From Bacteroidia bacterium (GTDB lineage: Bacteria > Bacteroidota > Bacteroidia > AKYH767-A > 2013-40CM-41-45), in NCBI GenBank assembly GCA_038230515.1, contig JBBRND010000015.1, forward strand, positions 13,694-77,693: a DNA stretch of 64,000 nucleotides, in the 5' to 3' direction. Positions 8,179-60,655 of this stretch are shown piece by piece. Position 1 is the first letter of the stretch, and each line of letters opens with the position of its first letter. The position numbers and the translations under genes are program-made. The notes under the pieces are model-generated. The model had not been told where the DNA came from. It worked only from the letters and a program-made list of their open reading frames with translations, and ran no database searches.

Positions 8179-8405
8179 CTATGCAGATAGGCAAAACACT
8201 TGCTTTTATCATCTGCACGGCTATGCAGGCAGGCAAAACACTTGCTTTTATCATCTGCACGGCTGTGCAGGTAGGCAAAACACTTGCTTTTATCATCTGC
8301 ACGGCTGTGCAGGCAAGCAAAACACTTGCTTTTATCGTCTGCACGGCTGTGCAGGCAAGCAAAACACTTGCTTTTATCGTCTGCACGGCTGTGCAGGCAG
8401 GCAAA
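8179..8405. repeat. Tandem array A: about 5.4 copies of a 42-bp unit (ctgtgcaggcaggcaaaacacttgcttttatcatctgcacgg). Each unit is internally near-palindromic (gtgcag...ctgcac, gcaa...ttgc).
   Basis: Direct reading gives unit boundaries at 8179, 8221, 8263, 8305, 8347 and 8389. Several overlapping ORFs are open in multiple frames, which is typical of non-coding repeats. The array sits in a divergent intergenic region. Confidence 0.9.
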
Positions 8406-8684
8406 TAGCCAAATTTTAATTTTTTATGGGGTGAGAAGAGAGGAAACTACCAAAAACAGAAATGCCGCTAAAACCAATAAGCGGCATTTCTGAAAAAACA
8501 ATGTGTACTAAACAATGTGTATCGTCATCTTATACAAAATATGATTGCCAGAGGTTACAGGTTTATTCATATCAGCCATCTCAAAATAAAAATCGGGTAA
8601 CCCATTCTAATGCCGGGTTCAAAATTATTTGTCGCTACGGAATAGCTTTTTACATTTGCCGCTCAAACCCAAAATAATATTAAA

Positions 8685-9317
8685 ATGAAAAAAGTAAATG
8701 CACTCTTAATTGCCTGCATCATTGCGCTGTCAGGCACTGTGGCAAACGCACAGAAATACACCGAAGGCGATAAGACACTGTCTTTTCTTGCCGGAGAAAA
8801 ACTTATCAATATTGAATACAACTACGACAACATGATGGTTGGTAAGAAAACTGAAGAAGAATATAAAAAGGGAAAGATGGCTGACTTCGATAAAAAAGTT
8901 CCGGGCAAGGGAGACAAGTGGGCAAAGAAATGGGTGGATAGCCGCCAGAGTGTTTATGAGCCAATGTTCGAAGAGCTGATAAATAAAATGCTTGCAAAAG
9001 CGAAGATGGATGTAAAATTGGGAACCGGACAAACCACTGCCAAATACACACTGTTTGTGCATACAACAATGACAGAGCCGGGCTTCACCATTCCGATGGT
9101 AATGAAAGTGAATCCGTCATGCAATTTCGAATTTTCATGGATCGAAAATTCATCAAAGAAAGTAATGGCAAAAGGTCAACTGAACAAAGTTGCCGGAGTA
9201 GTAATGAACGATAACGACTGGGAATTTGATCCTTCAAACAGAATAAAAGAATGTTATGCAAAGGCAGGCAAAGTAGTAGGCGTTACCATGTCGAAAGCAT
9301 TAAAAGCGAAGAAGTAA
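8685..9317 (+). CDS. Secreted hypothetical protein.
   Basis: Has a signal peptide (MKKVNALLIACIIALSGTVANAQ). It is followed by a strong terminator. Confidence 0.5.
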   Translation: MKKVNALLIACIIALSGTVANAQKYTEGDKTLSFLAGEKLINIEYNYDNMMVGKKTEEEYKKGKMADFDKKVPGKGDKWAKKWVDSRQSVYEPMFEELINKMLAKAKMDVKLGTGQTTAKYTLFVHTTMTEPGFTIPMVMKVNPSCNFEFSWIENSSKKVMAKGQLNKVAGVVMNDNDWEFDPSNRIKECYAKAGKVVGVTMSKALKAKK

Positions 9318-9332
9318 AATAAACTTCTGAGT

Positions 9333-9373
9333 AAAAAAAAATCCCCCGATATGTATCGGGGGATTTTTTTTGT
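9333..9373. terminator. Bidirectional rho-independent terminator (A-run, atcccccgata/tatcgggggat stem, T-run).
   Basis: A perfect 11-bp stem is flanked by A8 and T8. It lies between the convergent genes ending at 9317 (+) and 9381 (-). Confidence 0.8.
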
Positions 9374-9380
9374 AGCTATT

Positions 9381-11975: not shown

Positions 11976-12326
11976 AAAGTTTCTCTTTTAAAAATTAAAA
12001 CGTTTAAGTTAAGTTATCAAGTGCTGTAATTTGTGTGCAAAGTTACGCAGGTTTTTGTGGTTTGCAATTACCGTACAATCACCTTCAATCTGCCGATCCG
12101 TCAGTTTTTATTTTCAACACAATTTTGTTGACGGTTGCATTCTCTTTTAATTAGTCGAGGAGATGAGAACTCTCTTTACTTTTTTGTGATAAAACCGTCA
12201 GTTAATTGAAGTGGATTGAGTACCTTCGTTCACTATTTTAATAGTACGAATAACGAATGGTTTCGCACTTACGAAACCCTCGAAAACTTCCAACTTAACT
12301 TTAAACATTAGACCTAAAACTTTGGC

Positions 12327-14909
12327 ATGGCTTCAGGAGAAAGAATAATTCCGATTAACATCGAGGAAGAAATGAAAACGGCTTACATTGATTATTCAAT
12401 GTCAGTCATTGTGTCGCGTGCGCTGCCCGATGTTCGCGATGGATTAAAACCTGTACACCGTAGAGTGCTTTACGGAATGCTCGACCTCGGAGTGTTGAGC
12501 AATCGTCCCTATAAAAAATCTGCAAGAATAGTTGGAGAGGTGCTTGGTAAGTATCATCCGCATGGAGACAGTTCTGTGTATGATGCCATGGTTCGAATGG
12601 CGCAGGAATGGAGTTTGCGCTATCCGCTTGTTGACGGACAGGGAAATTACGGAAGCATGGATGGCGATCCTCCGGCAGCAATGCGTTACACAGAGGCGCG
12701 CTTCAAAAAGATTGCGGAGGAAATGCTTAATGATATTGACAAAGATACCGTTGACATGGCGCTCAACTTTGATGATACATTAAAGGAGCCAACAGTTCTT
12801 CCTGCAAAAATTCCAAACCTTTTAATGAATGGTTCTTCAGGAATTGCAGTGGGAATGGCAACCAACATGCCTCCTCATAATCTTACCGAAGTTATTGACG
12901 GCATCATCGCATACATCGCGAATAAAGAAATTACAATTGATGAGTTGATGCAATTCATTAAAGCGCCCGACTTCCCTACTGCAGGAATTATTTACGGATA
13001 TGCAGGAGTTCAGGAAGCATTCAGAACTGGACGCGGAAGAATTGTTCTTCGTTCGCGCGCTGTCATTGAACAGCATAATGGTAGGGATAGAATTGTCGTT
13101 ACTGAAGTTCCTTACCAGGTTAACAAGGCGGAGATGATCAAGCGCACGGCTGATCTGGTGAATGAGAAAAAGATTGAAGGCATTACTGACATCCGTGATG
13201 AATCAGACCGCGAAGGTGTTCGCATTGTGTATGAATTAAGGCGCGATGCAATTTCAAATGTGGTGCTTAATAATCTTTACAAACAAACTTCTCTGCAATC
13301 GTCATTCAGTGTAAACAATATTGGATTGGTTCACGGCAGACCGATGACTCTTAATCTGAAAGACCTCATAGTGCATTTTGTAAATCACCGCCATGAAGTG
13401 GTGATCCGTAGAACACAATACGAATTAGCAGAAGCAGAAAAGCGTGCACACATTCTTGAAGGGTTGTTGATCGCTCTTGATCATCTTGACGAAGTGATTG
13501 CATTGATACGTGCTTCACAAACCCCCGACATTGCACGTGACGGATTGATGGTGAAATTCGGTCTCTCCGAAATTCAATCCAAAGCAATTCTTGAAATGCG
13601 TTTGCAACGTTTGACAGGACTTGAGCGCGATAAGATTAAAGCAGAATATAAAGAGTTGATGGAACTCATCGAATACTACCGCGACATACTTGCGAATGAG
13701 GATTTGAGAATGGACATCATCAAAGACGAACTTTTGGAAATAAAAGATAAGTACGGTGATGCGCGGAGAACAGAAATCGTTTATACAGGCGATGATATTT
13801 CCATGGAAGACATGATTGCTGACGAAGATGTGGTGATCACGATTTCTCATGCAGGTTATATCAAGCGCACTGCACTTACTGAATACCGGGCGCAGGGCAG
13901 GGGAGGGCGAGGAGCAAAAGGAAGCGCCACACGCGAAGAAGATTTTGTGGAACATATTTTTGTTGCATCTACTCACAACTACATTTTATATTTTACTGAA
14001 TTGGGCAAATGTTATTGGATGAAGGTGTATGAAATTCCCGAGGGAACAAAGACATCAAAGGGCAGAGCGATTCAGAATTTGATTTCACTTCCTGCTGATG
14101 ATAAAGTGAAAGCATTTATCAACGTGAAGAATTTGACGGACGAGGAATACATCAACAATAATTTCGTGGTGATGTGTACCAAGAATGGAACGATTAAGAA
14201 AACATCGCTCGAAGCATATTCACGTCCGCGGCTGGCGGGCATAAATGCCATAAACATTGAAGCAGGGGATGTTTTGCTTGAAGCCCGTCTCACGAATGGG
14301 AAAAATGAAATAATGGTAGCTACCAAAAAAGGAAAGGTAGTTCGCTTCAATGAAGAAACTGTTCGTGCTGTAGGAAGAAATTCAATTGGTGTGAGGGGAG
14401 TAACGCTTGATGGCGCTGATGATTTTGTAATCGGCATGGTCTGTGTGAATGATGTGTTGAAGGAAACCGTGCTTGTTGTTTCAGAAAAAGGATACGGTAA
14501 GCGAAGCGATGTAGAAGAGTACCGCAAAACAAATCGTGGAGGAAAAGGCGTAAAGACAATAAACATCACTGACAAAACAGGAAACCTTATCGCAATAAAA
14601 ATTGTTGACAACAACGATGACCTGATGATCATTAACAAATCCGGAATTACGATACGAATGAATGTGGATGAGCTTCGCGTAATGGGAAGAGCCACACAAG
14701 GTGTTCGACTTATAAAGCTGGATGATGATGATGAAATTGCATCGGTAGCAAAGGTGGAAGTGGTGGATGAAAAGAAAGCAGAAGACATTGAAACTGCTCT
14801 TCCGCCAATTGATTCTGCAACCGCTGCTCCCGCTCCTTCTCCTGATGAATCAGGTTCTGCCGAAGACCAGGATACAGAAAGCACAGATGAAAATAATCCT
14901 CAGGAATAA
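12327..14909 (+). CDS. gyrA: DNA gyrase subunit A.
   Basis: Contains the N-terminal [28 protein letters not shown] with the active-site Tyr region, and the QRL pinwheel repeats. The acidic C-terminal tail is typical of Bacteroidetes GyrA. Confidence 0.95.
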
Positions 14910-15016
14910 ATAATAATAAAAAGTACCATTAACGAATACAGATAGGGTCGAATCTACGAGTGAAAACAGATTCGTAAATTAGGTTGGATTCGTATTCGTT
15001 GATGAAACTCTAATAA

Positions 15017-17321: not shown

Positions 17322-17466
17322 GATTTATAGAATTAGCAATTTGAATTTTTTAAAATGAGCACTGGCGTTTTTCTACAATTTTATTTAAGATGAAAGATAA
17401 AATTGATTTCGGGGTTGTCGAAGGTAGAGAGGAAATTAAGCAAAGGCATATGAATTCTTTTTAAAA

Positions 17467-17518: not shown

Positions 17519-17917
17519 TTACGTGTTAGCAGGCCAAGGATTCTCGTGCTCTGCAGTACCCATCTTGATCTTCTTTGCAGAGATCGTGAAGCGTGTAGTC
17601 ATCGGGTTGCTGCCAACCGTGTCAATACTCTCGCCAAACTGAATGATGTACGATTCTTCGAATTCAAGCGTCTTCAAAGCAGCAGAATCACTGCGTTTGT
17701 AGAAAGTAATTTTTCCGTTTTTTACTTTGTGCGGATCAGCCATCCACTCAAGGATGCTGTTGTCTTCGGTAGCTTCAACTTCACATTGAATAGTACCACC
17801 ATAAAGAACAGAAGAAGGGCGACCTGATGCATCAGTATCTCTGCGAAGAGCGTAGTCGCAATGGAGGAGATTAATTTCATCTCCGCCATCAATGCTAAGG
17901 GTTGATTTGAAAGCCAT
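17519..17917 (-). CDS. Hcp/TssD-like tube protein (Bacteroidetes T6SS-iii type or contractile-injection tube protein).
   Basis: A 132-aa protein beginning MAFKSTLSIDGGDEINLLHCDYALRRDTDASGRPSS...GGTIQCEVEATED. Size, N-terminal pattern and layout are reminiscent of Bacteroidetes TssD. Monocistronic with its own strong terminator. Confidence 0.5.
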   Translation of the reverse strand: MAFKSTLSIDGGDEINLLHCDYALRRDTDASGRPSSVLYGGTIQCEVEATEDNSILEWMADPHKVKNGKITFYKRSDSAALKTLEFEESYIIQFGESIDTVGSNPMTTRFTISAKKIKMGTAEHENPWPANT

Positions 17918-22029: not shown

Positions 22030-22337
22030 TGTTTTTAAAATTTATATTGTTTAATTAATAGTTGTTACACGAGAAAAAAACCACTGATGTTTAAAGGTTT
22101 TGATGGAAACCTTACAGTTTTTGTGTGGAAGGGGAAGAAAGTGCTGCGAGTTCTCTAACTTAGACTATAAAGAAAAAACTGTTGCGCTTGTTGAATGGCT
22201 GGTCTAGCTGTGCGCACAAGAAATTCTGCGAGAGATGACTGGCTGGCAATGAAACTACCTAAACTCTACAGGAACAAAATTAATTTGTTCAATATTTCGC
22301 TTTTCATACGTTTGCAATTCACTTTAAAACCACTCGT

Positions 22338-24095: not shown

Positions 24096-25259
24096 TTACC
24101 GATTTCCTTTTGCCCGATTGTGTGTCTTGCATAACATCTGACAGTTTTTAGAATCAGTAGCGCCACCTTTGCTCCATGCTGCTACATGGTCGGCATCCAT
24201 TTCTACCAGCTTATAAATCTTACCCTTGTTGGCATCATTTCCAAGGGCACAAAGCGGACAGTTTGATTCATCTTTAGTTTCAGCAGTTTTAGTTTGCGTT
24301 GAATAAACAGATTTTTTAGTTGCATCATCAAACACGCGCACTTCCAACAACTTTGTGTCCACCGAGCCGCCAAGGATGAATTCAAAAACACCCTTTCGGT
24401 TTTTGATATACGGATCACCGTAGAGCTTTTTTACTTCGGCTGATACCTTCTTAGGATCATACGCTGTGTTATGATATTCTTCATAGAGGCGACCCCATTC
24501 TAATCCGCACATTTCGCTTTCTACATCTATAAATGTGGTTGAAACCCAATCAATCACTGTGTTGAAATAGGTTTTTAATTCTTTGATGTTTTTGTCTTTG
24601 CGATGGCGGCTCATGTATTCATCAATGCCGCCTTTACTTACCCAGTCTAAGGCGCGTTCTAAAAACGCCTGCCTGTTGGCGCTGCCCTTTATATAGGCGC
24701 TCCATTTTTGGATGTTAGAATTTTGGCTGTTGCTAAACTCCTCTTTGCCGAGTGTGACAAACGGACCGGAATAAATTGAGTTGAGCAATTCCTGATGACT
24801 GAGCGGAACACCTGCAATGTTGATGGTTTTGAACCACTCTTTTATCTCGCTCTCTTCGCCTTCACATTCATAAATGAGAATTTGAGTTTTATAAATCATA
24901 GCCCTTTTATCATCCGCAATACCGTCAAAGTATTGCTCCATGCCGTTTTCATCTTTCACGGCAAATTTGTTGGTGACATAGCGCCCGAAGCTGGTGATGC
25001 GCTGTTGCCCGTCTAACACTTCAAATTTATCGTCACTCACTTTTACGAAATAGATCAAGCCCAAGGGGTAGCCCTTGAGGATAGATTCAATAACCGCTAC
25101 ATCTCTTTTGCCATCGGCATAGATATAGTTACGCTGATACTCCGGCTGTATGGTGAGTTTGCCGCTCAAGCCAAACAGCCCTTTGCCTTCCAATTCATTA
25201 TACTGAAAGCCCTCGCAAATATCTTTGACAGTGATGTTGGTTATTAGTGTTGTTTTCAT
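24096..25259 (-). CDS. DUF262 (ParB/Srx-like, DGQQR motif) N-terminal domain fused to a C-terminal HNH endonuclease. This is the GmrSD/BrxU/SspE-like architecture.
   Basis: The N-terminus has [10 protein letters not shown]...[10 protein letters not shown]. The C-terminus has CPLCALG...[32 protein letters not shown], an HNH His-Me finger with CxxC...C pairs. Its start overlaps the MTase stop by 4 nt. Confidence 0.6.
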
Positions 25260-26356
25260 TTGGTTGTTTTCTTGTGCTTGATAAGTATTCGAGTATAAAG
25301 CCTTTTGTTATTTACATACCCCCTATCTAACTTGCCTTTCCACTTAGAGTTAACTAATTCAGGTAGAAGTCCATCTTTGACATAATAATCGCTTCCAACA
25401 ATTTCAAACTGCTCAGGAGAATATTTATCAAGAAAGCTAATCGGCACACCCATCACACCATCAAAATCACTTGGGATGTATTTGACAAATGGCACTTCAA
25501 TTGCATCATAGTTATCATATTTTTCAAACGGTTTTTTAGTACCAAATTTTATTAGGTCCTCCTTGTTCATTAATGCCAACGGTTGATGACGTCTTCCATG
25601 GTCTATGTTGGTGAACCAACATGAATTTCCAAGTCTTGTATAATCCCCTACATATCCAAGTCGAGCTGCTTTCTGTCGGTCTTTTTCATCAACTTCTGTC
25701 CCTTTTGGAACAGCAAAGACCATGTCGTTAACAAAACCCGTTGCTCCCAACCAAATTTTATTTTCTTTTATCAATGGAAAAACTTCTGTGTAAGTTATAG
25801 CATTTATACTACCAATTATCACAAACTGCTTATTAGCCTCTATAACCCACCCTAAAAAATCACGAAACATTGAGAAAGGCGGATTGGTGATGATGATGTC
25901 GGCTTCATCGCGCAGCTTTTTTATTTCTTTACTATTAAAATCACCATCGCCTTTTAAATAATGCCACTCTAAGTCATCTACATCTATTTTTCCATCACCG
26001 GTGTTGTCGCGGGTGAGGGTGAAAATCTTTCCGTGTTTGGTGGTTTTCTTTTTATCGTATTGCGGAGCGCGTTCTTCAAACAGCGAGGGCTGGTAACCGC
26101 TTTTGTATTTTTTACTTTCGGCAGCATAGCTGGTGCTGATGAGTTTTTTCAAGCCAATGCGCTGAAAGTTTTGAGCAAAAAATTTAGTGAAGTTGCTCCA
26201 CTCCGGGTCATCGCAGGGCAGCAGCACCGTTTTACCACGAAACACTTTAGGGTTGTAATCCAAGTAGGCATTGATCTCTTTTTCTATATCGTGGTATTGC
26301 GTGTAGAACTCATCGTTCTTTGCCTTTTTTGCGTTGGTGAGATTACTGTTTGCCAT
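25256..26356 (-). CDS. N6-adenine DNA methyltransferase, EcoRI-methylase-like.
   Basis: The N-terminus [21 protein letters not shown] resembles the M.EcoRI family start. It has a catalytic IITNPPFS (NPPF) motif and an FxGxG-like AdoMet region. Confidence 0.65.
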
Positions 26357-26505
26357 ATTTGCTCAAAGAGAATTTAAGAACTCTGTGAAATTTTTCAGAA
26401 GCCGAAAGTCCACATTTCTCTTCTCCCCACCAAATTGAATTCTTCTCTTACAGAAACCTTACACTTTTCTTTAAACCTTCTAAATTTTAAAAATTTCTCG
26501 CAATA

Positions 26506-26950
26506 CCGTGAACTTTGCGGACTAAACAGCGAGCAATAATCTCTAAACATTGAACTTTGCGGGCTAAACCGTGAACAAGATTCTCTAAACACTGACCTTT
26601 GCGGGCTAAACCGTGAACAAGATTCTCTAAACACTGACCTTTGCGGGCTAAACCGTGAACAATTTTCTCTAAACACTGACCTTTGCGGGCTAAACCGTGA
26701 ACAAGATTCTCTAAACACTGACCTTTGCGGGCTAAACCGTGAACAAGATTCTCTAAACACTGACCTTTGCGGACTAAACCGTGAACAATTTTCTCTGAAC
26801 ACTGAACTTTGCGGACTAAACCGTGAACAATTTTCTCTGAACACTGAACTTTGCGGGCTAAACGGTGAACAAGTTTCTCTGAACGCTGAACTTTGCAGAC
26901 TAAACGGTGAACAAGTTTCTCTGAACGCTGAACTTTGCAGACTAAACAGC
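26506..26950. repeat. Tandem array B: about 10.5 copies of a 42-bp unit made of two 21-bp half-units (ctaaaccgtgaacaagattct + ctaaacactgacctttgcggg). The sequence drifts progressively along the array.
   Basis: Example units lie at 26564-26584 and 26585-26605. The array occupies almost the whole spacer between the smc stop (27182) and the MTase start (26356). The overlapping 191-aa ORF is a repeat artefact. Confidence 0.9.
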
Positions 26951-27181
26951 AATGTTACTTTTCCAAACATGAAACATGCTGCACATTACATGGTTGTTAT
27001 GAGGGTAGTGCACGAGGTTATAGCAGAAGAATTTTCCGCGTGTTTGCCCTGCTGCAAACTTTACACTTCAGACCTTAAATTAATCAGATTGATTTAAAAC
27101 GCTACCCGAGAAAAGTTCGGAGGCGTTTTATTTGCGTATTTACTTATTCGTAAATTCGAAACGATCAGCTATTCGCACAAC

Positions 27182-48499: not shown

Positions 48500-49579
48500 C
48501 TATCTGTGTGTGTATTGCTTCTCGTAGTAATTCAAATAATCTCCTGATGTCACCTGCTTCAGCCATTCCTGGTTTGCGAGATACCAGTCAACAGTTTTTT
48601 CAAGACCTTCTTCAAACTGAAGTGAAGGAGTCCAACCAAGTTCGCGTTGGAACTTTGAAGAGTCAATTGCATAGCGCAAGTCATGACCTGCACGGTCTTT
48701 CACAAAGGTGATCAACTTCATTGATGTTCCTTCTTCACGTTTTAGTTTTTTATCCATGATCTTGCAGAGTAGTTGAATGAGATCGATGTTTGTCCATTCA
48801 TTGTGTCCACCAATGTTGTAAGTATCACCAACTTTTCCTTTGTGAAAAATGGTATCAATAGCCCGCGCATGGTCTTCAACAAACAACCAGTCACGAATGT
48901 TTTCTCCCTTGCCATACACCGGAACAGGAATTAAATTGAGGATATTATGAATGGTAAGCGGAATTAGTTTCTCAGGAAAGTGGAACGAACCGTAATTATT
49001 AGAGCAGTTTGAAATAACGGTTGGCAAACCAAACGTATCATGATATGCTCTCACAAAATGATCACTGCTTGCTTTGGAAGCAGAGTAGGGGCTGTGTGGA
49101 TCATAGGAGGTTTCCTCTGTAAAGAATCCTACCTGATCAAGAGAGCCATACACCTCATCGGTACTCACATGGTAAAATAAATTCCGATTTCCATTTTGCG
49201 AACTGCGAACTGCGAACTGCCAATTTTTTTTAGCTGAGTTCAATAAATTCACTGTACCAATTACATTGGTCATTACAAAATCAATCGGGTTCGAAATACT
49301 ACGGTCAACGTGGCTTTCTGCTGCAAGATGGATGACAGAATCAAATTTGTACTCAGAGAAAAGTTCTTGCAGAAAATTGCCATCAACGATATTCCCTTTT
49401 ACGAATTCGTAGTTTGCTTTATCTTCAATGTCGCGCAGGTTTGCAAGATTCCCTGCATACGTTAGTGCATCAAGATTCACAATTTTGTAATCTGGATATT
49501 TGTTGACAAACAAACGTACAACATGCGACCCGATGAATCCTGCACCTCCCGTTATTAATATATTTTTATTCATCTTCAA
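48500..49579 (-). CDS. rfbB: dTDP-glucose 4,6-dehydratase.
   Basis: Contains ILITGGAGFIGSHVVR, the TDEVYG segment and a YSASKA motif. Confidence 0.85.
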   Translation of the reverse strand: MKMNKNILITGGAGFIGSHVVRLFVNKYPDYKIVNLDALTYAGNLANLRDIEDKANYEFVKGNIVDGNFLQELFSEYKFDSVIHLAAESHVDRSISNPIDFVMTNVIGTVNLLNSAKKNWQFAVRSSQNGNRNLFYHVSTDEVYGSLDQVGFFTEETSYDPHSPYSASKASSDHFVRAYHDTFGLPTVISNCSNNYGSFHFPEKLIPLTIHNILNLIPVPVYGKGENIRDWLFVEDHARAIDTIFHKGKVGDTYNIGGHNEWTNIDLIQLLCKIMDKKLKREEGTSMKLITFVKDRAGHDLRYAIDSSKFQRELGWTPSLQFEEGLEKTVDWYLANQEWLKQVTSGDYLNYYEKQYTHR

Positions 49580-49583
49580 ATTT

Positions 49584-50606
49584 TCAAATCACTAAATCAG
49601 CCAATCGGTTTTCCCATTTCCATGCGCTCCGCATAATATCTTCCAAAGATAATTCTGCTTTCCATCCTAATTCAAAATTGGCAAGTTTTGTATCAGCCCA
49701 AACTTTTACAACATCACCGGCACGCCTTTCGCCAATCTTGTAATTAACTTTTACATCGTTCACGTTTTCGAACGCATTAATAGCTTGCAACACAGTATTA
49801 CCAGTTCCTGTTCCGAGATTAAAAATTTCAAACTTTTTTTTATTTTTTTTATTAAGTAAGCGCTCTACGGCAACGATGTGCGCCTTTGCAATATCAACCA
49901 CATGAATGTAATCACGGATGCAGGAACCATCGGGTGTGTCGTAGTCACTTCCAAACACAGTAATACTCTCCCTCTTGCCAATTGCTGTTTGTGTAATTAC
50001 CGGAACTAAATTATTCGGTGGACTCAATGGATATTCTCCAATCAATGCGCTTTCATGTGCACCTGCCGGATTGAAATAACGTAACGCAATTCCTGAAAAT
50101 TTATTTACACGACTCGCATCAGTTAAAATTTCTTCCCCGATTTGTTTTGTATTTCCGTAAGGCGACTCAGCTTTTGCAAGCGGAGCAGATTCATCAATCG
50201 GTAATTTGGTTTGATCGCCATACACGGAGCAACTTGATGAGAATAAAAAGTTGTCGAGTTTTTTTTCTTTGTAAACGTCAAGAAGATTTATTAGGGAGAG
50301 AAGGTTGTTCCGGTAGTACATCAACGGATTCTCTACAGATTCTCCCACTGCCTTGAAAGCCGCGAAGTGAATGGTAGCATCAATTTTATTCTCGTTGAAA
50401 AAACGATTTACTTTTTCCTTATCGCATAAATCGAATTGATGAAAAGCGGGTTTCTTTCCTGTGATCTTTTCAATTGAATTCAATACTTCAACCCGCGAGT
50501 TGCTTAAGTTGTCAATAATAAAAACGTCATAACCCTTCGCCAGCAACTCAACGGTTGTGTGAGAGCCGATATAACCTGTACCGCCTGTGACAAGAATACT
50601 TTTCAC
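49584..50606 (-). CDS. galE: UDP-glucose 4-epimerase.
   Basis: Contains ILVTGGTGYIGSHT and YGNTK. Length is 340 aa. Confidence 0.85.
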   Translation of the reverse strand: MKSILVTGGTGYIGSHTTVELLAKGYDVFIIDNLSNSRVEVLNSIEKITGKKPAFHQFDLCDKEKVNRFFNENKIDATIHFAAFKAVGESVENPLMYYRNNLLSLINLLDVYKEKKLDNFLFSSSCSVYGDQTKLPIDESAPLAKAESPYGNTKQIGEEILTDASRVNKFSGIALRYFNPAGAHESALIGEYPLSPPNNLVPVITQTAIGKRESITVFGSDYDTPDGSCIRDYIHVVDIAKAHIVAVERLLNKKNKKKFEIFNLGTGTGNTVLQAINAFENVNDVKVNYKIGERRAGDVVKVWADTKLANFELGWKAELSLEDIMRSAWKWENRLADLVI

Positions 50607-50708
50607 TCCAGTATTTTTTCTATTGTTCGAATTGTAAATGGTTTTGAATTTACGAATGAATAAATCAGGGAATGGATTCGTAAATTCGGATACATTCGTT
50701 ATTCGTAC

Positions 50709-51998
50709 CTATAAACTCCAGTATGTAATCTCTTTCAACTTCCCTTTGTAAATTCCTTTCAGATCAACAATAAGTGCGTCTTTGCTTGTAATGGATTTGA
50801 AATATGCCTCATCAAAATTTGCATACTCATTGTGATTTACTGCAACGATAACTGCGTCATAATTTTTCCCGATATCGGGAACTAGTTCAAATCCATATTC
50901 ATGTTTAAGATGTGCACTGTCGGCTTTAGGATCGGTGACTTCAACACTTACTCCATAACTTAAAAGTTCTTTCACTACGTCAGCAACCTTTGAATTGCGT
51001 ATGTCTTCTACATTTTCTTTAAATGTAGCGCCCATCACCAACACTCTTGCTTTAGATAAATCTTTTCCTGTAGCAACAATTTTTTTTACGGTTTGCTTCG
51101 CGACATAAAATCCCATGCTGTCATTTACATAACGCCCGCTATTGATTACCTGCGCATGATAACCAAGTTCCTGAGCTTTGTAGGTCAGGTAATACGGATC
51201 AACACCAATACAATGTCCGCCAACAAGTCCCGGTTGGAAGCGCATGAAATTCCATTTTGTTCCGGCAGCGGCAAGCACATCGTATGTGTTTATTCCCATC
51301 TTGTTAAAAATGATAGAGAGTTCATTCATCAACGCAATGTTGACATCGCGCTGTGTGTTCTCAATAATTTTTGCCGCCTCTGCAACCTTGATGGATTGTG
51401 CTTTGTGAACGCCCGCCTTCACAATAATCTCGTACGTATTTGCAATTTCATTCAACGATTCTTCATCACATCCGGAAACTACTTTCAGAATTTTCGAAAT
51501 GGTATGCTCGTGATCCCCGGGATTGATGCGTTCTGGAGAGTATCCGACTTTAAAATCAGTTTTAAATTTTAATCCTGATAATTCTTCGAGAACAGGAATG
51601 CAATCTTCTTCAGTGCATCCCGGATACACTGTAGATTCATACACCACATAATCACCTTTCTTCAAAACTTTACCGATGAAACGCGTTGCTCCGAGTATCG
51701 GCTTCAAATCAGGAAGATTGTGTTCATCAATTGGAGTGGGAACAGTAACAATGTAAAAATTTGCTTCACGAAGCTTTTCTGACGATGATGTAAATTCAAT
51801 ATCGCATCCTTCAAACGCGCTTGATTCAAGTTCACCGCTTGGATCAATTTTATTTTTCATTTTCTCCACACGAGGGTCGCTGATGTCGAAACCGATTACT
51901 TTTATTTTTTTTGCAAATTCTAGAGCTATTGGCAACCCTACGTAGCCCAATCCTAATACTGCTAGTTTACTTTTCTTGTGAATTAATTCCTGGTACAT
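50709..51998 (-). CDS. UDP-N-acetyl-hexosamine 6-dehydrogenase (nucleotide-sugar dehydrogenase, WbpA/WbpO/TviB/WecC-like).
   Basis: Has the N-terminal GLGYVGLP and catalytic Cys region (GGHCIGVDP). Length is 429 aa. Confidence 0.8.
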   Translation of the reverse strand: MYQELIHKKSKLAVLGLGYVGLPIALEFAKKIKVIGFDISDPRVEKMKNKIDPSGELESSAFEGCDIEFTSSSEKLREANFYIVTVPTPIDEHNLPDLKPILGATRFIGKVLKKGDYVVYESTVYPGCTEEDCIPVLEELSGLKFKTDFKVGYSPERINPGDHEHTISKILKVVSGCDEESLNEIANTYEIIVKAGVHKAQSIKVAEAAKIIENTQRDVNIALMNELSIIFNKMGINTYDVLAAAGTKWNFMRFQPGLVGGHCIGVDPYYLTYKAQELGYHAQVINSGRYVNDSMGFYVAKQTVKKIVATGKDLSKARVLVMGATFKENVEDIRNSKVADVVKELLSYGVSVEVTDPKADSAHLKHEYGFELVPDIGKNYDAVIVAVNHNEYANFDEAYFKSITSKDALIVDLKGIYKGKLKEITYWSL

Positions 51999-52027
51999 TT
52001 TTTAAGTTATACGTTAATAGGTATCTG

Positions 52028-53089: not shown

Positions 53090-53149
53090 GTTATACAGTT
53101 CGCAGAAATACAGATTGAGTTTTTCATTCTACAATCTACAATTTAAATT

Positions 53150-53734: not shown

Positions 53735-53736
53735 TT

Positions 53737-54699: not shown

Positions 54700-54707
54700 A
54701 GTTTTCC

Positions 54708-56018
54708 TTATCCGATTACTGCGCGACCGACACTGTTGTAATAAAAGCCAAGTTCTTTCATCTGATTGAGATCATATAAATTTCTTCCATCAAAGATTAC
54801 AGGTTGTTTCATCAGCGATTTCATTTTTTCAAATTCAGGTGTGCGGAATAAGCTCCACTCTGTGGCGATTATGAGTGCATCTGCATCTTTCAGGATTTCA
54901 TACTCGTCTTTTCCATACTGAATTTTATCTCCGACAATTAGTTTAATATTTTTTATCGCTTCCGGATCGAAGACAGAAACAATTGCTCCGTGATTCAATA
55001 GATCTTCAATGATATACAGAGCAGGAGCTTCGCGAATATCATCTGTGTCCGGTTTAAATGCCAATCCCCATAAAGCAATTTTTTTTCCTTTCAGATCACC
55101 GCCAAAATATTTTTTGAGTTTCTCGACAATGCTTCGCTTTTGTTTTTCGTTTACCTCCATCACACTTTTTAGTGTGGTGAAATCGTACTTGTAATCTTTC
55201 GAAGTTTTTACAAGTGCCTGCACATCTTTCGGGAAACAACTTCCGCCATACCCGATTCCAGCAAACAAAAATCTTTTTCCGATTCGCGCATCCGACCCGA
55301 TTCCTATTCTCACGCTGTCAACATTTGCTCCGGTGAGTTCACAAAGATTTGCAATCTCATTCATGAAGGTAATTTTCATCGCAAGAAATGAATTGGCAGC
55401 GTACTTGGTAAGTTCGCTCGAACGTTCATCCATAAAGTAAACCGGATTACCCGAACGAACGAACGGAGCATACAATTCATTCATCATTTTTTTTGCACGC
55501 TCAGATGTTGTGCCAATCACCACGCGATCAGGTTTCATAAAATCATCCACTGCAAATCCTTCGCGAAGAAATTCGGGATTACTCACTACATCAAATTCTA
55601 TTTTGCAGTTCTTCGCAATCGCAGCATGAACTTTTTCTGCCGTGCCAACAGGAACGGTACTCTTATTTACAATGATTTTGTAATCGGTGAGAAGATGACC
55701 TAGTTGATCAGCAACCTGTAGAATATATTTCAGATCAGCAGAACCGTCCTCGCCTGGAGGGGTTGGCAGTGCAAGAAAAATAATTTTTGCATCTGTGATT
55801 CCTTCAGCAAGATTGGTGGTAAATGTTAATCGTCCTTGCTTGATGTTGCGGTCAAAAAGTAAATCAAGATGTGGTTCGTAGATGGGAACCTCACCGCGCT
55901 TCAACTGGGCTACTTTGTCTTCATTAATGTCAACACAGGTAACATGGTTTCCTGTTTCAGCAAAACAGGTTCCGGTTACTAATCCTACATAACCCGTTCC
56001 AACAACTGCTATTTTCAT
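54708..56018 (-). CDS. ugd: UDP-glucose 6-dehydrogenase.
   Basis: Contains [14 protein letters not shown] and GGSCFPKD. Length is 436 aa. Confidence 0.85.
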
Positions 56019-56084
56019 AAATATGATTTGAAGATTTGTTGGTTTGGAAATTTGAAGATGCTATTTGTGTTCATCTTCAAATTA

Positions 56085-57233
56085 TCAAACTTTCAAATCA
56101 GCTAATTGAGTTAATGATTCAAGAACCGATTCAGTAATGTATTTCAATGTTTCTTCTTTCATCTCCGTGTGTATCGGTAGTGAAATTACGGTTGCACAAA
56201 GATGTTCGGTTACCGGAAAATCTCCCTGCTTGTACCGCGCATCGCGATATGCTTTCTGCATGTGAAGCGGCACCGGATAATAAATCATGGAAGGAATTTC
56301 CTTTGACGCAAGATGCTCGCGCAGTTTATTCCTGTCAGCATCTTTCAACACCAACGTATATTGATGAAACACATGCTCTGAGTTTTTTGTTCGTGCCGGA
56401 GTTATAATCTTTGGATTGTTTGCAAATGCGTTGTCATAATAATCAGCAACACTTCTTCTTGCTGCTGCATATTCATCAAGATGTTTCAGTTTGATGCGAA
56501 GTATTGCTGCCTGTATGCTGTCCAATCTTGAATTGACTCCGATTTCATCATGATAATATAAAACACTTTGACCATGATTGGCAACCATGCGCATCTTCTT
56601 TGCGAGGTCATCATCATTAGTAAAGATTGCTCCGCCATCTCCATAACATCCTAGGTTTTTTGAAGGGAAGAAAGAAGTACAGCCAATTGTGCCGATGGTT
56701 CCTGCTTTCTTTTTGTTTCCGTCTTTCAGAAAATAATCTGCACCGATTGCCTGCGCTACGTCTTCAATCACAAAAAGATTGTTGCGTTTTGCAATGTCCA
56801 TCATCGCATCCATATCAGCACATTGTCCGAAGAGATGGACGGGAACAATTGCTTTAGTTTTCGGAGTAATAGCGCGCTCCACCGCTTTCGGATCAATCAG
56901 AAAAGTATCCGGAAGCACATCTACCAAAACGGGTTTCAGTTGGAGCAATGCAATAACCTCTGCAGTTGCTACATAAGTGAAGGATGCAGTAATTACTTCA
57001 TCGCCCGGCTTCAAACCGAGCGCCATCATGGCAATCTGCAACGCATCCGTGCCGTTTGCACACGGTATTACATGCTTTACGCCAAGGTATTTTTCAAGTT
57101 CCTGCTGAAATGACTTTACCTCCGGTCCATTGATGTAAGCCGATGAACGCACCACATCCAACACCGCCTTGTCAATCTCCGGCTGTATTTTTTCGTACTG
57201 ACCAATGAGGTCCACCATCTGAATTTTTGCCAT
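56085..57233 (-). CDS. DegT/DnrJ/EryC1/StrS-family aminotransferase (WbpE-like).
   Basis: Has the PLP-enzyme fold with ANGTDALQIAM and an FxxxK lysine (FFPSKNLG). Confidence 0.85.
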   Translation of the reverse strand: MAKIQMVDLIGQYEKIQPEIDKAVLDVVRSSAYINGPEVKSFQQELEKYLGVKHVIPCANGTDALQIAMMALGLKPGDEVITASFTYVATAEVIALLQLKPVLVDVLPDTFLIDPKAVERAITPKTKAIVPVHLFGQCADMDAMMDIAKRNNLFVIEDVAQAIGADYFLKDGNKKKAGTIGTIGCTSFFPSKNLGCYGDGGAIFTNDDDLAKKMRMVANHGQSVLYYHDEIGVNSRLDSIQAAILRIKLKHLDEYAAARRSVADYYDNAFANNPKIITPARTKNSEHVFHQYTLVLKDADRNKLREHLASKEIPSMIYYPVPLHMQKAYRDARYKQGDFPVTEHLCATVISLPIHTEMKEETLKYITESVLESLTQLADLKV

Positions 57234-57340
57234 AATTCTTTAAAAAAAGAACGCGAAGATAGCGAAGTTATTCGTTATGGCTTATTCATTATCGCAATTC
57301 AATTTGTCAAATCAAACTAACTTGCGCGCAAAATATCATC

Positions 57341-58300: not shown

Positions 58301-58384
58301 AAAATTTTCTGCATCCCTCGCCCTCGCGCAATAAAAAAGTTCCGGAACCGCTTCGGGGTTAGTTTCAGTTTAACTTCGCTATCT

Positions 58385-60046
58385 TTGATGCATAGTACGA
58401 ACCCCATGCGCCTTAAGTATCTTTTTGCATTGCTCATTATTTTTTCGGGAGAGGCGAGAGCGCAGGCGCCAACTATCGAGTGGCAAACTTGTCTCGGTGG
58501 CACCCAGACAGAAGGATTTTTGACCTTCATAAATGGTTTGCAACAAACAATTGATGGAGGATATATAATTGGCTCTAGAACTAATTCCAATGATGGGAAT
58601 GTCTCCGGAAATCATGGAGGAAATTGCGGAGCGGCTTGTAATGATGGATGGGTAGTAAAATTGGATAGTGGAGGGATTATCCAATGGCAAAAATGCTTAG
58701 GTGGAACAAGCGAAGATGTCTTCTCAGCAATTCATGAGACTTTTGATGGTGGCATTATTGTCGCTGGTCAAACAAATTCAAATGATGGAGATGTAAGTGG
58801 TTTGCATTCCGGAACAGGAGGTGATTTTTGGGTTTGTAAATTGGGCAACGTTGGTAATTTACAATGGCAAAAATGTCTTGGTGGTACTGATGACGACTTT
58901 GCATTATCTATTGTCTTATCTCCAGATAGTGGATATCTAATAGCTGGTCAAACAAGCTCAAATGATGGTGATGTAAGTGGAAACCCATTTCCGGGTTCTC
59001 CATTTGCATGGATAACAAGACTTAATGGCAGTGGCAACGTTATATGGCAAAAATGTTTGCCAAATACTTATAATCCAGGAAATGTTTCTGCAACGCATAC
59101 AATTGATGGAGGTTATATAGTAGCATGCACCGGTGGAGGTTTATTGTATCACAACAACTCAAAAGAATACTGTATGTCAAAAGTGGACAGCATGGGAAAT
59201 TTGCAATGGCAAAAATTTTATGGCGGAAATGATAATGATCAACCTAATTGTATCCGGCAAACTCGTGACGGAGGTTTTGTTATGGCGGGTTACACCGATT
59301 CGCACGATGGAGATGTAACTTTTAACCATCGCGATACCACTCTTGGAAGTTTACTTTGGCATGATGAATACTGGATAATAAAAACTGACAGCTCGGGTAA
59401 TTTGCAGTTTCAGAAATCATTAGGAGGTAACTGGAATGACATAGCATATTCAATTGAACAATGTCTGGATGGGGGATACATAATTTCTGGTCAAGCGATG
59501 TCAAATGATGGTGATATTAACAATGGTCTTCATGGGGGAGGAACCTTCGGTGGTCCAGGAGATTGTTGGATTGTAAAATTAGATTCTGCTTTCGGCTTGC
59601 AATGGCAGAAATGTTTTGGTGGTTTTGGCGATGATATTGGCGAAGTAATAAGTCAAACTAGTGATCAAGGGTTTATTCTTAAATCATCCTCATTCTCAAA
59701 TGATGGAGATGTGAGTGGTAATCATGGAAATGGAGACATCTGGATTGTTAAGCTTTCTCCCTCCTCTACAGGATTAACAACTATCAATAACCCAATAACA
59801 GATTTCACCGCTTGCCTAAACAGAACCAATAGAAGTTTAGATTTAAACTTTTACGCCAACGGCAACGAGCATACACAAGTACAACTCTTAGATATAACCG
59901 GCAGAGTGCTGCTCTCGCAACCCCTTGCAGTAACAGCGGGTTTTAATAAACAAGAAGTGCAGGCAGGTCAGCTTGCTGGCGGGGTGTATGTGGTAAGGTT
60001 GGTAACAGAGGGCGGGAGTGTGGTAAAGAAGTTAATTAAGAATTAG
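58385..60046 (+). CDS. Secreted SBBP (beta-propeller)-repeat protein with a T9SS C-terminal sorting domain.
   Basis: Has a signal peptide and about eight repeats of roughly 47 aa (WQKCLGGT..D....DGGYIIAGQT.SNDGDVSGNHG..D.W). The C-terminus is a typical CTD (GRVLLSQPL...AGGVYVVRLVTEGGSVVKKLIKN). Confidence 0.7.
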   Translation: MMHSTNPMRLKYLFALLIIFSGEARAQAPTIEWQTCLGGTQTEGFLTFINGLQQTIDGGYIIGSRTNSNDGNVSGNHGGNCGAACNDGWVVKLDSGGIIQWQKCLGGTSEDVFSAIHETFDGGIIVAGQTNSNDGDVSGLHSGTGGDFWVCKLGNVGNLQWQKCLGGTDDDFALSIVLSPDSGYLIAGQTSSNDGDVSGNPFPGSPFAWITRLNGSGNVIWQKCLPNTYNPGNVSATHTIDGGYIVACTGGGLLYHNNSKEYCMSKVDSMGNLQWQKFYGGNDNDQPNCIRQTRDGGFVMAGYTDSHDGDVTFNHRDTTLGSLLWHDEYWIIKTDSSGNLQFQKSLGGNWNDIAYSIEQCLDGGYIISGQAMSNDGDINNGLHGGGTFGGPGDCWIVKLDSAFGLQWQKCFGGFGDDIGEVISQTSDQGFILKSSSFSNDGDVSGNHGNGDIWIVKLSPSSTGLTTINNPITDFTACLNRTNRSLDLNFYANGNEHTQVQLLDITGRVLLSQPLAVTAGFNKQEVQAGQLAGGVYVVRLVTEGGSVVKKLIKN

Positions 60047-60245
60047 AAATGTTGGCAGCTGTTTCTAAAGCCGGGTGAGCGCGCACAGGCAAACGCGCAA
60101 CACCTGTTGGCACGAAAATCTTCCTTTTATTTGAAACCTAGCAGCGGCTGTGCGAGCTTCCTAACGGAAGGTAGGCAAAACGTCATTTTTTCTTACAACC
60201 TTCGAAATTTGCGAATTTACCTGTAAATCCCGCGATTGATTTTAG

Positions 60246-60655
60246 TTCTCCCGCCATTGTTAGCGACTAAACCACGACTGTTCCCGACCAAACCACGATT
60301 GCTACCTGCAAAACCACGACCGTTGTCGACTAAACCACGACTGTTCCCGACCAAACCACGATTGCTACCTGCAAAACCACGACCGTTGTCGACTAAACCA
60401 CGACTGTTTCCGACCAAACCACGATTGCTACCTGCAAAACCACGACCGTTGTCGACTAAACCACGACTGTTCCCGACCAAACCACGATTGCTATCTGCAA
60501 AACCACGACTGTTGTCGACTAAACCACGATTGTTCCCGACCAAACCACGATTGCTATCTGCAAAACCACGACTGTTGCCGACCAAACATGAATTGTTGGC
60601 GATAAAACATGGAATGTTGACGATCAAACAACGAGTGATTTTTATTAATCCGCAA
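60246..60655. repeat. Tandem array C: about 19 phased 21-bp units with a 63-bp super-period (ctaaaccacgactgttcccga / ccaaaccacgattgctacctg / caaaaccacgaccgttgtcga), degenerating at the 3' end.
   Basis: Direct reading gives units at 60267, 60288, 60309, 60330 and onward. All frames on both strands are open, so the ORFs 60236..60724 and 60217..60627 are repeat artefacts. Confidence 0.9.

What the first reader, a model, noticed from the sequence alone, without database searches (positions are those of the whole stretch)
8179..60655. Three unrelated loci carry arrays with identical 21-bp phasing and an AAAC-containing core, a possible uncharacterised dispersed repeat family
Arrays A (42 bp), B (2 x 21 bp) and C (3 x 21 bp) all have periods that are exact multiples of 21 bp. 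Their cores (c/t)(a/t)aaac(a/c) are similar: caaaacac, ctaaacac/ctaaaccg and ctaaacca/ccaaacca. All are intergenic and sit next to accessory-looking genes (an unknown secreted pair, the defence module, a T9SS cargo gene). Three such arrays in 64 kb is a high density. The pattern suggests a family of phased protein-binding repeats or a mobile minisatellite class that has not been described for this lineage, as far as can be judged without searches.
Basis: inference. Interest (0 to 1): 0.6.

Follow-up and report, generated by a model that had tools for sequence, protein, structure and literature searches.

The report
Species-specific intergenic minisatellites at synteny breakpoints
Three real, non-coding tandem-repeat arrays in an uncultured Bacteroidota genome are linked by shared flanking sequence (not by the proposed AAAC core) and sit where this genome's gene order departs from its relatives; they look like a lineage-specific minisatellite family of a kind already seen in Porphyromonas, with no function shown.

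Summary
The three arrays are real: A 8174-8405 (42 bp x5.5), B 26509-26947 (42 bp x10.5) and C 60264-60587 (63 bp x5.1, with a degenerate tail to about 60641). All are intergenic. They have no credible coding frame, no Rfam match and no plasmid or phage match.

The two proposed signatures do not hold up. A has no 21-bp substructure. The AAAC core is a post-hoc motif, and unit-to-unit similarity between arrays is at chance level. Periods that are multiples of 7 or 21 are common among tandem repeats in 874 kb of related Bacteroidota DNA.

The loci are nevertheless related through their flanks. B and C share a 23-nt upstream motif in the same orientation. The C leader contains about 1.3 copies of the A unit.

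Each array lies where synteny with relatives ends. C and a T9SS cargo gene are inserted inside an ABC-transporter operon. B replaces the conserved SMC-IspD junction. A lies just beyond the conserved GyrA-ClpC block. Relatives at 84-93% amino-acid identity lack the arrays.

Best reading: a species-specific, BrickBuilt-like family of intergenic minisatellites in variable DNA. They are helically phased and predicted to be curved. A also carries a 16-nt palindrome in each unit. Function is not shown. Interest is modest.

The parts
8174..8405 (+). Array A: 5.5 copies of a 42-bp unit, CACGGCTGTGCAGGCAGGCAAAACACTTGCTTTTATCATCTG. Each unit holds a 16-nt near-palindrome, CTGCACGGCTGTGCAG, and a small hairpin, AAGCAA-AACAC-TTGCTT. 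There is no 21-bp sub-period.
   Evidence: TRF; register print; autocorrelation; RNA fold z -5.6 for two units and -9.9 for the array with its flank
8457..8492 (.). Perfect 13-bp-stem hairpin, CAGAAATGCCGCT-N10-AGCGGCATTTCTG, 50 bp beyond array A. It is terminator-like, with the T-run on the minus strand.
   Evidence: the repeat finder (I5); sequence
8621..8658 (+). Canonical Bacteroidetes-type promoter match (TTTG, 19 nt, TACATTTG) for the 210-aa secreted-protein gene. It lies outside array A.
   Evidence: Consensus scan (the consensus was recalled from memory)
26465..26487 (+). Leader motif of array B, TTTTCTTTAAACCTTCTAAATTT. It is shared with the C leader (20/23 identical).
26509..26947 (+). 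Array B: 10.5 copies of a 42-bp unit, TGAACTTTGCGGGCTAAACCGTGAACAAGATTCTCTAAACAC. It is made of two diverged 21-mers, with a weak 7/14-bp sub-period. Degenerate first units begin at about 26497.
   Evidence: TRF; RNA fold not significant
27052..27072 (-). Inverted, diverged copy of a B unit (16/21) in the tail, 111 bp beyond the array
   Evidence: the repeat finder (I1, I2)
27096..27129 (.). Hairpin flanked by an A-run and a T-run just downstream of the SMC gene; a likely bidirectional terminator
   Evidence: Read from the sequence; inference
58301..60821 (+). Segment inserted between the substrate-binding and permease genes of an ABC operon. It comprises the T9SS cargo gene 58385-60046 and the array C region. 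In relatives the two ABC genes abut or overlap.
   Evidence: tblastn on 80 related loci, with SBP and permease adjacent in nearly all; L133 is syntenic at 70-93% aa identity over window 49.6-62.4 kb without the insert; sequences
60133..60183 (+). A-unit-like module in the C leader, CGGCTGTGC[GAGCTTCCTAACGGA]AGGTAGGCAAAAC. The gapped alignment starts at about 60108.
60188..60210 (+). Leader motif of array C, TTTTCTTACAACCTTCGAAATTT
60264..60641 (+). Array C: 5.1 copies of a 63-bp unit made of three 21-mers (CGACTAAACCACGACTGTTCC, CGACCAAACCACGATTGCTAC, CTGCAAAACCACGACCGTTGT). Three degenerate 21-mers follow from 60579.
   Evidence: TRF; RNA fold not significant
60671..60708 (.). Imperfect hairpin in the C tail containing the 14-nt palindrome AGTTATGCATAACT, upstream of the permease gene
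   Evidence: the repeat finder (I1 of the third region)

Best explanation
The three arrays are non-coding minisatellites (variable-number-type tandem repeats) specific to this species-level lineage of an uncultured Bacteroidota bacterium.

They lie in unconstrained intergenic DNA at the borders between conserved core gene blocks and lineage-specific or rearranged DNA. They are connected by descent through their flanks, not through a common repeat core. A short module, about 1.3 copies of which sit in the C leader, has been amplified into array A. B and C share a leader motif followed by arrays of diverged 21-mers. The architecture (leader, then a spacer-less tandem array, then a tail; several intergenic copies; narrow host range) is that of the BrickBuilt minisatellite elements of Porphyromonas gingivalis. 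The terminal inverted repeats of BrickBuilt are absent, and each locus has its own unit.

Inferred mechanism: the arrays grow and shrink by replication slippage or unequal recombination. Periods of 42 and 63 bp follow the general 7n/21n bias of tandem repeats in this phylum. Because 21 bp is two helical turns, each array is predicted to be a coherently curved stretch of DNA. Dispersed related sequences of this kind can also act as substrates for the rearrangements seen at their positions.

Shown: the arrays exist, they are non-coding, they share flank homology, they lie at synteny breakpoints, and they are absent from relatives. Inferred: slippage origin, curvature, and any effect on neighbouring genes or on recombination.
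For: - Arrays and periods.
- No coding signal: ORFs through the arrays exist only because the units lack stop codons, and their translations have no homologue among 5.8 billion proteins.
- No RNA or mobile-DNA match: no Rfam family at gathering or permissive thresholds, no tRNA, no plasmid or phage match.
- Flank homology: the B/C leader motif is 20/23 identical, z 5.8, and gives the only two hits in the window. The A unit occurs in the C leader with 22 identical bases split by a 15-nt insert, 0.00 expected.
- Synteny at C: about 50 relatives, including L133 (70-93% aa identity over 13 kb), have the SBP and permease genes adjacent.
- Synteny at B: four relatives have SMC-IspD-QueA-TruB, and synteny with the window stops exactly at the SMC 3' end.
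- Synteny at A: one relative shares the TPR-GyrA-ClpC block, and synteny stops after ClpC.
- Lineage specificity: no related unit or leader in about 0.9 Mb from relatives.
- Period bias: 7n/21n periods are over-represented in relatives. The heptanucleotide bias of prokaryotic repeats is attributed to Mrazek et al. 2007 in PMC4679880.
- Curvature: predicted curvature depends on the in-phase period.
- BrickBuilt description: PMC4596501.
Against: - Only 64 kb of this genome could be examined, so 'family' rests on three loci and two pairwise flank similarities. A and B are linked only through C.
- The units themselves are unrelated at the sequence level. A single ancestral element is therefore not demonstrated, and the shared modules could be small independent dispersed elements that happen to sit next to arrays.
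- No terminal inverted repeats or target-site duplications were found.
- Copy number could not be verified, because short-read contigs break inside the arrays.
- The curvature parameters were recalled from memory. Random units repeated at the same period are almost as curved.
- The density comparison with relatives uses heterogeneous metagenome contigs.
Confidence: 0.55

Rival explanations
1. The arrays are three independent, unrelated tandem duplications that share nothing but the phylum-wide preference for 7n/21n periods. On this view the flank similarities are small generic intergenic motifs (terminator or promoter pieces, REP-like elements), not evidence of a family.
For: Unit-to-unit similarity between arrays is at chance level. 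A has no 21-bp substructure. Periods of 21n are common in relatives. Other small dispersed intergenic repeats exist in the window. A 21-bp-phased pattern scan returned more than 119 unrelated arrays across many phyla.
Against: The exact 9+13-nt match between the A unit and the C leader has 0.00 chance expectation in shuffles, and the alignment extends over about 55 nt. The B/C leader motif lies at the same side, orientation and similar distance from both arrays. Three strong arrays in 64 kb is about 6-fold above relatives.
Confidence: 0.2
2. The arrays are functional, helically phased protein-binding arrays, comparable to operator, iteron or centromere arrays. A regulator, nucleoid-associated protein or partition-type protein would coat them, organising or silencing the adjacent acquired genes or marking recombination sites.
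For: All periods are whole numbers of helical turns (4 or 6). Array A carries one 16-nt palindrome, CTGCAC-GGCT-GTGCAG, per 42 bp, an architecture like the 43-bp sopC repeats of plasmid F (comparison from my own knowledge; palindrome shown). B and C keep an 11-nt pattern, CHAAACMNYGA, in every 21-mer, while it occurs once elsewhere in the window. Curvature is predicted to be strong. The arrays lie next to accessory genes.
Against: No rep, par, or DNA-binding gene is adjacent. The loci are chromosomal, with no plasmid or phage similarity. The units differ between loci, so one protein could not bind all three. Conservation within an array is what recent duplication gives anyway. The arrays are absent from close relatives.
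Confidence: 0.13
3. One or more arrays encode a non-coding RNA built of repeated modules, for example a sponge-type or scaffold RNA, transcribed from the leader.
For: Array A folds far better than shuffles on the plus strand (z -5.6 and -9.9) and is followed by a strong hairpin. The B/C leader motif contains near-consensus -7 boxes, TAAATTTT and GAAATTTG, pointing into the arrays (read from the sequence). BrickBuilt has promoter activity (PMC4596501).
Against: B and C are unstructured on both strands (z -1.5 to +2.3). There is no exact Bacteroidetes promoter consensus in or before the arrays and no Rfam match. The apparent structure of A comes from a DNA palindrome repeated in tandem. No covariation test is possible because no homologues exist.
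Confidence: 0.07
4. The arrays are protein-coding repeats (7, 14 or 21 residues per unit), decayed genes, or assembly artefacts.
For: All periods are multiples of 3. Open frames run through each array, for example a 191-aa ATG-initiated ORF on the minus strand of B directly upstream of the methylase gene.
Against: Several frames are open at once in A and C, as expected for stop-free units. The peptides are Cys/Arg/Phe-rich nonsense with no homologue in 5.8 billion proteins, and they were not called as genes in any source. Two independent read sets give identical array edges.
Confidence: 0.05

Closest known systems
BrickBuilt minisatellite/MITE of Porphyromonas gingivalis (Klein et al. 2015, PMC4596501)
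   Same: Both are in the phylum Bacteroidota. Both are spacer-less tandem direct repeats of about two helical turns (23 nt there; 21-nt based in B and C here). Both are always intergenic, have a 'leader' sequence shared between copies, occur as several copies per genome and have a narrow host range. In both, copies lie next to T9SS-cargo genes, and one BrickBuilt copy lies next to clpB.
   Different: BrickBuilt has one conserved 23-nt unit in all 19 copies, leader and tail segments up to about 300 nt, and small terminal inverted repeats. Here each locus has its own unit (42, 42 and 63 bp), only short modules are shared, no common tail and no TIRs were found, and there is no sequence similarity to anything outside this organism. 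Promoter activity, shown for BrickBuilt, is untested here.
Heptanucleotide-based simple repeats of prokaryotes (Mrazek et al. 2007 as cited in PMC4679880; TAACTGA repeats of Beggiatoaceae, Cyanobacteria and Bacteroidetes; cyanobacterial STRR)
   Same: Both are intergenic tandem repeats whose periods are multiples of 7. The same bias is seen in relatives of this genome. Array B keeps a weak 7/14-bp sub-period.
   Different: Units here are 42-63 bp, not 7. A and C show no heptamer substructure. No TAACTGA is present.
Plasmid iterons and sopC-type centromere arrays (F plasmid sopC: 12 x 43 bp, each with a 16-bp inverted repeat; from my own knowledge)
   Same: Both have tandem direct repeats in helical phase. 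The 42-bp unit of array A, with one 16-nt palindrome, closely mimics sopC architecture.
   Different: The context here is chromosomal. No rep, par or sop genes are nearby, and there is no plasmid similarity. B and C have no palindrome.
REP/BIME clusters of enterobacteria (from my own knowledge)
   Same: Both are short palindromic intergenic modules that are dispersed and locally clustered, often at gene 3' ends and at rearrangement points. The A-type module exists both as a solo copy (C leader) and as a cluster (array A).
   Different: REPs in BIMEs alternate in orientation and are associated with RAYT transposases. The units of array A are strictly head-to-tail, and no RAYT-like gene is present in the window.

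Membership tests
BrickBuilt-type leader-minisatellite-tail element (PMC4596501) | Spacer-less tandem direct repeats located strictly between genes | tested here: met
   TRF; ORF map; Pfam annotation of neighbours
BrickBuilt-type leader-minisatellite-tail element (PMC4596501) | The same repeat unit consensus (23 nt) in all genomic copies | tested here: not met
   Units are 42, 42 and 63 bp, and similarity between loci is at chance level (10-13 of 21)
BrickBuilt-type leader-minisatellite-tail element (PMC4596501) | Homologous leader and tail segments flanking the repeats in different copies | tested here: inconclusive
   A 23-nt leader motif is shared by B and C. An A-unit module occurs in the C leader. 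No shared tail was detected.
BrickBuilt-type leader-minisatellite-tail element (PMC4596501) | Small terminal inverted repeats at the element ends (MITE character) | tested here: not met
   Only short, chance-level inverted pairs flank the arrays
BrickBuilt-type leader-minisatellite-tail element (PMC4596501) | Many dispersed copies in one genome | not testable with these tools
   Only the 64-kb window of this genome is available. It holds three copies. The NCBI contig could not be fetched.
BrickBuilt-type leader-minisatellite-tail element (PMC4596501) | Promoter activity of element segments | not testable with these tools
   The consensus scan finds no canonical promoter inside the arrays. Activity would need reporter assays or dRNA-seq.
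Iteron / centromere-like binding arrays | Direct repeats in helical phase | tested here: met
   Periods are 42, 42 and 63 bp, that is 4, 4 and 6 turns. Predicted curvature is lost when the unit is lengthened by 5 nt.
Iteron / centromere-like binding arrays | Cognate rep or par gene adjacent, on a plasmid, phage or integrative element | tested here: not met
   No such domains in neighbours. Chromosomal core genes flank the arrays. No plasmid or phage match.
Iteron / centromere-like binding arrays | Specific protein binding to the repeat | not testable with these tools
   Needs EMSA, pull-down or ChIP
CRISPR array | Identical repeats separated by unique spacers of similar length | tested here: not met
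   Units are contiguous, with no spacers
Heptanucleotide SSR / STRR-type repeats | 7-nt unit repeated head to tail | tested here: not met
   Self-match at shifts 7 and 14 is 7/42 and 7/42 for A, 13/63 and 12/63 for C, and weakly raised for B only (15/42 and 17/42)
Any described RNA family (Rfam 15) | Covariance-model match at the gathering score | tested here: not met
   Only sub-threshold hairpin-like miRNA matches on array A.

The most novel reading that the evidence does not exclude
The arrays are not neutral minisatellites. On this reading they are a family of helically phased, curved-DNA or protein-binding modules with shared leader sequences, which mark or create the sites where this Bacteroidota lineage inserts accessory genes and rearranges its chromosome. 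That would make them a recombination or insulation element class so far undescribed. The general 21n bias of non-coding repeats in the phylum would be its wider footprint.
Probability: 0.1. Interest if true: 0.6.

Novelty: new member of a known kind. Interest (0 to 1): 0.3.

Why it matters
If the family reading holds genome-wide, this uncultured Bacteroidota lineage would be a second example, after BrickBuilt in P. gingivalis, of leader-bearing intergenic minisatellites sitting next to accessory and T9SS-cargo genes. Here there is the added observation that every copy seen lies at a synteny breakpoint. That would make the arrays useful markers of genome plasticity and of strain variation (VNTR typing), and possible substrates for rearrangement.

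There is also a practical point. These arrays break short-read assemblies at the borders of variable regions, so islands in related MAGs will often be missed.

The excess of 7n/21n periods among tandem repeats in related Bacteroidota DNA is a small general observation that deserves a proper genome-wide test.

As it stands, no function is shown, and the finding is ordinary repeat biology.

Tried and rejected
- **AAAC core as a family signature.** Rejected. Unit comparisons are at chance level and the motif is post hoc.
- **Hairpin-loop display of AAAC in an RNA.** Rejected for B and C, which are unstructured.
- **Coding repeats.** No homologue for any array ORF.
- **MITE.** No TIRs or target duplications.
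- **Promoter arrays.** No sigma-70-like or Bacteroidetes consensus in the units.
- **Plasmid or phage origin.** blastn in distant mode found nothing. Viral contig scans for the leader motif gave 8 hits, and TRF output checked for the first three (the rest was cut off) showed no array next to the motif; I treat all eight as chance. The scan for the A module gave none.
- **GTDB-wide scan for three CHAAACNNNGA cores at 21-bp spacing**. These turned out to be unrelated 21-bp or 7-bp arrays from many phyla, and none carried the leader motif. The scan therefore neither found the source genome nor defined a family.
- **Fetching the rest of the source contig** (98,293 bp in NCBI, per P0001 and P0121). 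This failed: look-ups returned only short Logan contigs.
- **Inverted repeat 22032-22062 / 26463-26493 as island ends** (I6). AT-rich and no better than many other pairs, so not pursued.


Full report
**Observation**

Tandem Repeats Finder confirms three strong arrays:
- A at 8174-8405: period 42, 5.5 copies, 95% matches.
- B at 26509-26947: period 42, 10.5 copies, 94% matches.
- C at 60258-60630: period 63, 5.1 copies, 97% matches, built from 21-mers, with three degenerate 21-mers at the 3' end.

Printing the arrays in register shows contiguous units without spacers. All three lie between genes:
- A lies between a 317-aa gene (7063-8016, minus strand) and a 210-aa signal-peptide protein gene (8685-9317, plus strand), next to ClpC and GyrA.
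- B lies between an EcoRI-like methylase with a GmrSD/HNH restriction enzyme (24096-26356, minus strand) and the 3' end of SMC (27182-30742, minus strand).
- C lies between a T9SS-tailed 553-aa gene (58385-60046) and an ABC permease gene (annotated start 60780).

Short-read contigs from two SRA runs are 100% identical to the window and terminate 30-75 nt inside each array. The repeats are therefore real. Their copy numbers are not independently verified.

**What does not hold**

- *A has no 21-bp substructure.* Its circular self-match at shift 21 is 10/42, which is background. B gives 22/42 and C gives 45/63. 'Identical 21-bp phasing' is thus true of B and C. For A it is only arithmetic.
- *The units are not similar between arrays.* The best circular match is 10-13 of 21. 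Random 21-mers from the window reach this with p between 0.02 and 0.55.
- *The AAAC core is post hoc.* The degenerate core (c/t)(a/t)aaac(a/c) was fitted after the fact. By my own estimate, motifs of that information content are expected to be shared by three units of this size. All five 21-mer types of B and C do fit CHAAACMNYGA, which occurs only once elsewhere in the window. However, the 21-mers within an array are related by descent, so this amounts to a single B-versus-C comparison. My rough estimate for it is p of about 0.1.
- *Multiples of 21 are not distinctive in this lineage.* In 874 kb of related Bacteroidota contigs, 8 of 34 non-coding arrays with period 10 or more have periods that are multiples of 21. 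Across all arrays, 45 of 135 have periods that are multiples of 7, against 14% expected (binomial p 2e-8). Peaks fall at 7, 14, 21, 42 and 63. A bias of prokaryotic simple repeats towards heptanucleotides, attributed to polymerase slippage, is reported from Mrazek et al. 2007 in PMC4679880.
- *The GTDB scan found no family.* A scan of GTDB genomes for three cores at 21-bp spacing returned more than 119 loci from many phyla, about 40% of them Bacteroidota. All were 21-bp or 7-bp arrays with unrelated units.

**What links the loci**

The flanks are related even though the units are not.
- B and C each have the motif TTTTCTT..AACCTTC.AAATTT (26465-26487 and 60188-60210) on the same strand, 22 and 54 bp upstream of the array. 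The two copies are 20/23 identical, with local-alignment z 5.8. With up to three mismatches they are the only hits in 64 kb, against 0.05 expected.
- Immediately upstream of that motif, the C leader contains CGGCTGTGC, a 15-nt hairpin-forming insert, then AGGTAGGCAAAAC (60145-60181). This is the A unit (8260-8281). Shuffles expect 0.00 such matches. A gapped alignment extends the similarity to about 1.3 A units.

So A is a local amplification of a module that also exists as a near-single copy beside C, and B and C share a leader. This supports a family in the sense of shared modules. A and B are linked only through C.

**Context**

*Array C.* Eighty related loci were fetched through the permease protein. 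In nearly all of them the substrate-binding and permease genes are adjacent or overlapping. The closest, L133, is syntenic with window 49.6-62.4 kb at 70-93% amino-acid identity and has no cargo gene and no array. The segment 58301-60821, comprising the cargo gene and the array C region, is therefore an insertion inside an ABC operon. The conserved permease start corresponds to the ATG at 60822.

*Array B.* Four relatives with 84-86% identical SMC have SMC-IspD-QueA-TruB. Synteny with the window (27.2-41 kb) ends exactly at the SMC 3' end, where array B begins. IspD, QueA and TruB are absent from the window.

*Array A.* A relative with 88% identical ClpC shares the TPR-GyrA-ClpC block, and synteny ends after ClpC.

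None of these relatives has a comparable array. No unit, leader motif or A module occurs in about 0.9 Mb of related sequence. Every array seen therefore sits at a border between conserved core and lineage-specific arrangement.

**Nature of the sequences**

- *No coding signal.* Open frames through the arrays reflect stop-free units. A concatenate of their translations has no homologue in 5.8 billion proteins.
- *No RNA family.* No Rfam family matches at gathering or permissive thresholds. Array A gives only sub-threshold hairpin-type hits.
- *Single-strand structure.* B and C are unstructured as single strands (z -1.5 to +2.3). A is strongly self-complementary (z -5.6 for two units, -9.9 for the array with its flank), because each unit carries the 16-nt near-palindrome CTGCACGGCTGTGCAG and a small hairpin.
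- *Flanking features.* A perfect 13-bp-stem hairpin follows A. An inverted, diverged B unit lies 111 bp beyond B.
- *No MITE or mobility marks.* No terminal inverted repeats above chance, no transposase, integrase, rep or par gene, and no plasmid or phage similarity.
- *No promoter in the units.* No canonical promoter lies within the arrays. The 210-aa gene has its own consensus promoter beyond A.
- *Predicted curvature.* A dinucleotide wedge model, with parameters recalled from memory, predicts that all three arrays are strongly curved relative to genomic segments of the same length (lowest 0.3-1.3%). Curvature vanishes if the unit is lengthened by 5 nt. Random units repeated at the same periods are nearly as curved, so this is a property of the phase and not of the sequence.

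**Interpretation**

The best-supported reading is a species-specific set of intergenic minisatellites that share flanking modules and occupy variable junctions of the chromosome. The closest described parallel is BrickBuilt of P. gingivalis, which has a leader, a spacer-less 23-nt array and a tail, occurs in 19 intergenic copies often beside T9SS-cargo genes, and has promoter activity.

Membership in that family is not claimed, because two defining features fail: one common unit, and terminal inverted repeats.

The likely mechanism is expansion by slippage or unequal exchange in unconstrained DNA, with the period shaped by the 7n/21n bias. Any role in curvature, protein binding, transcription of neighbouring genes or recombination is inference.

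The rivals and my confidence in each:
- independent arrays with coincidental flank motifs, 0.2;
- functional phased binding arrays, most plausible for A, 0.13;
- repeat-built non-coding RNA, 0.07;
- coding repeats or assembly artefact, 0.05.

**Verdict**

This is a new member of a known kind, of modest interest. The decisive test is a whole-genome scan of the source assembly for further copies, together with long-read or population data on copy-number variation.

Noticed in passing
window 58301-60821: A T9SS cargo gene (553 aa, internal repeats of about 190 bp) together with array C is inserted between the substrate-binding and permease genes of an ABC transporter operon. These two genes are contiguous in about 50 relatives. 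The conserved permease start corresponds to the ATG at 60822, not 60780.
   Followed up: yes
window 26948-27181 versus L214, L218, L219 at about 13561-13615: Relatives have SMC followed convergently by IspD-QueA-TruB. In the window that junction is replaced by array B, a type II restriction-modification pair and about 10 kb of other genes. IspD, QueA and TruB are not in the window, so this is a rearrangement breakpoint and not a simple island.
   Followed up: partly
window 12237-12278, 27138-27180, 50623-50665, 50674-50715: A dispersed, partly palindromic intergenic element of about 40 nt, ATTCGTAAATTCG...ATTCGTAC, which is REP-like. One copy lies between SMC and array B.
   Followed up: no
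window 49561-49606, 56015-56117: A conserved motif of about 45 nt, CATCTTCAAATTTTCAAATC..AAATCAGC.AAT, overlaps the starts of minus-strand genes at 49579 and 56018 and forms an inverted pair at 56015-56117. It may be a shared regulatory or 5'-UTR element of the polysaccharide-type gene cluster.
   Followed up: no
window 41900-42673: A long (about 770 bp), purine-rich intergenic region contains a weak 21-bp tandem repeat at 42017-42066 (2.4 copies). It has no Rfam match and its content is unknown.
   Followed up: no
L133-L212, L214, L217 (874 kb of related Bacteroidota contigs): Tandem-repeat periods show a strong excess of multiples of 7: 45 of 135 arrays (p 2e-8), with peaks at 7, 14, 21, 42 and 63. 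Many are short heptamer runs in intergenic DNA.
   Followed up: partly
L051, L052, L089, L106, L108, L110, L124 (Spirochaetaceae MAG Pc512_bin84): Seven different contigs of one termite-gut-type spirochaete MAG carry arrays of the same 21-bp unit, GGCAAAACATTGATGTTCTGA, which contains the palindrome AACAT..ATGTT. This is a clear dispersed single-unit 21-bp array family in another phylum. Similar multi-contig cases occur in Flavobacteriaceae SJ88 (L044, L102), a Bacteroides fragilis-labelled MAG (L069, L103) and several Nostoc genomes.
   Followed up: no
window 17519-17917; 5698-6033; 24096-26356: Accessory genes in the variable stretches: an orphan Hcp/TssD gene, a PemK-like toxin gene, and an EcoRI-like methylase with a GmrSD_N/HNH restriction enzyme (PADLOC MTase_II and REase_II).
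   Followed up: partly
L161 4070-4253; L149 7085-7293; L136 8615-8772: More distant relatives carry their own non-coding arrays with periods of 21, 42 or 63 and unrelated units. In L161 the array lies about 150 bp upstream of the orthologous substrate-binding gene.
   Followed up: no
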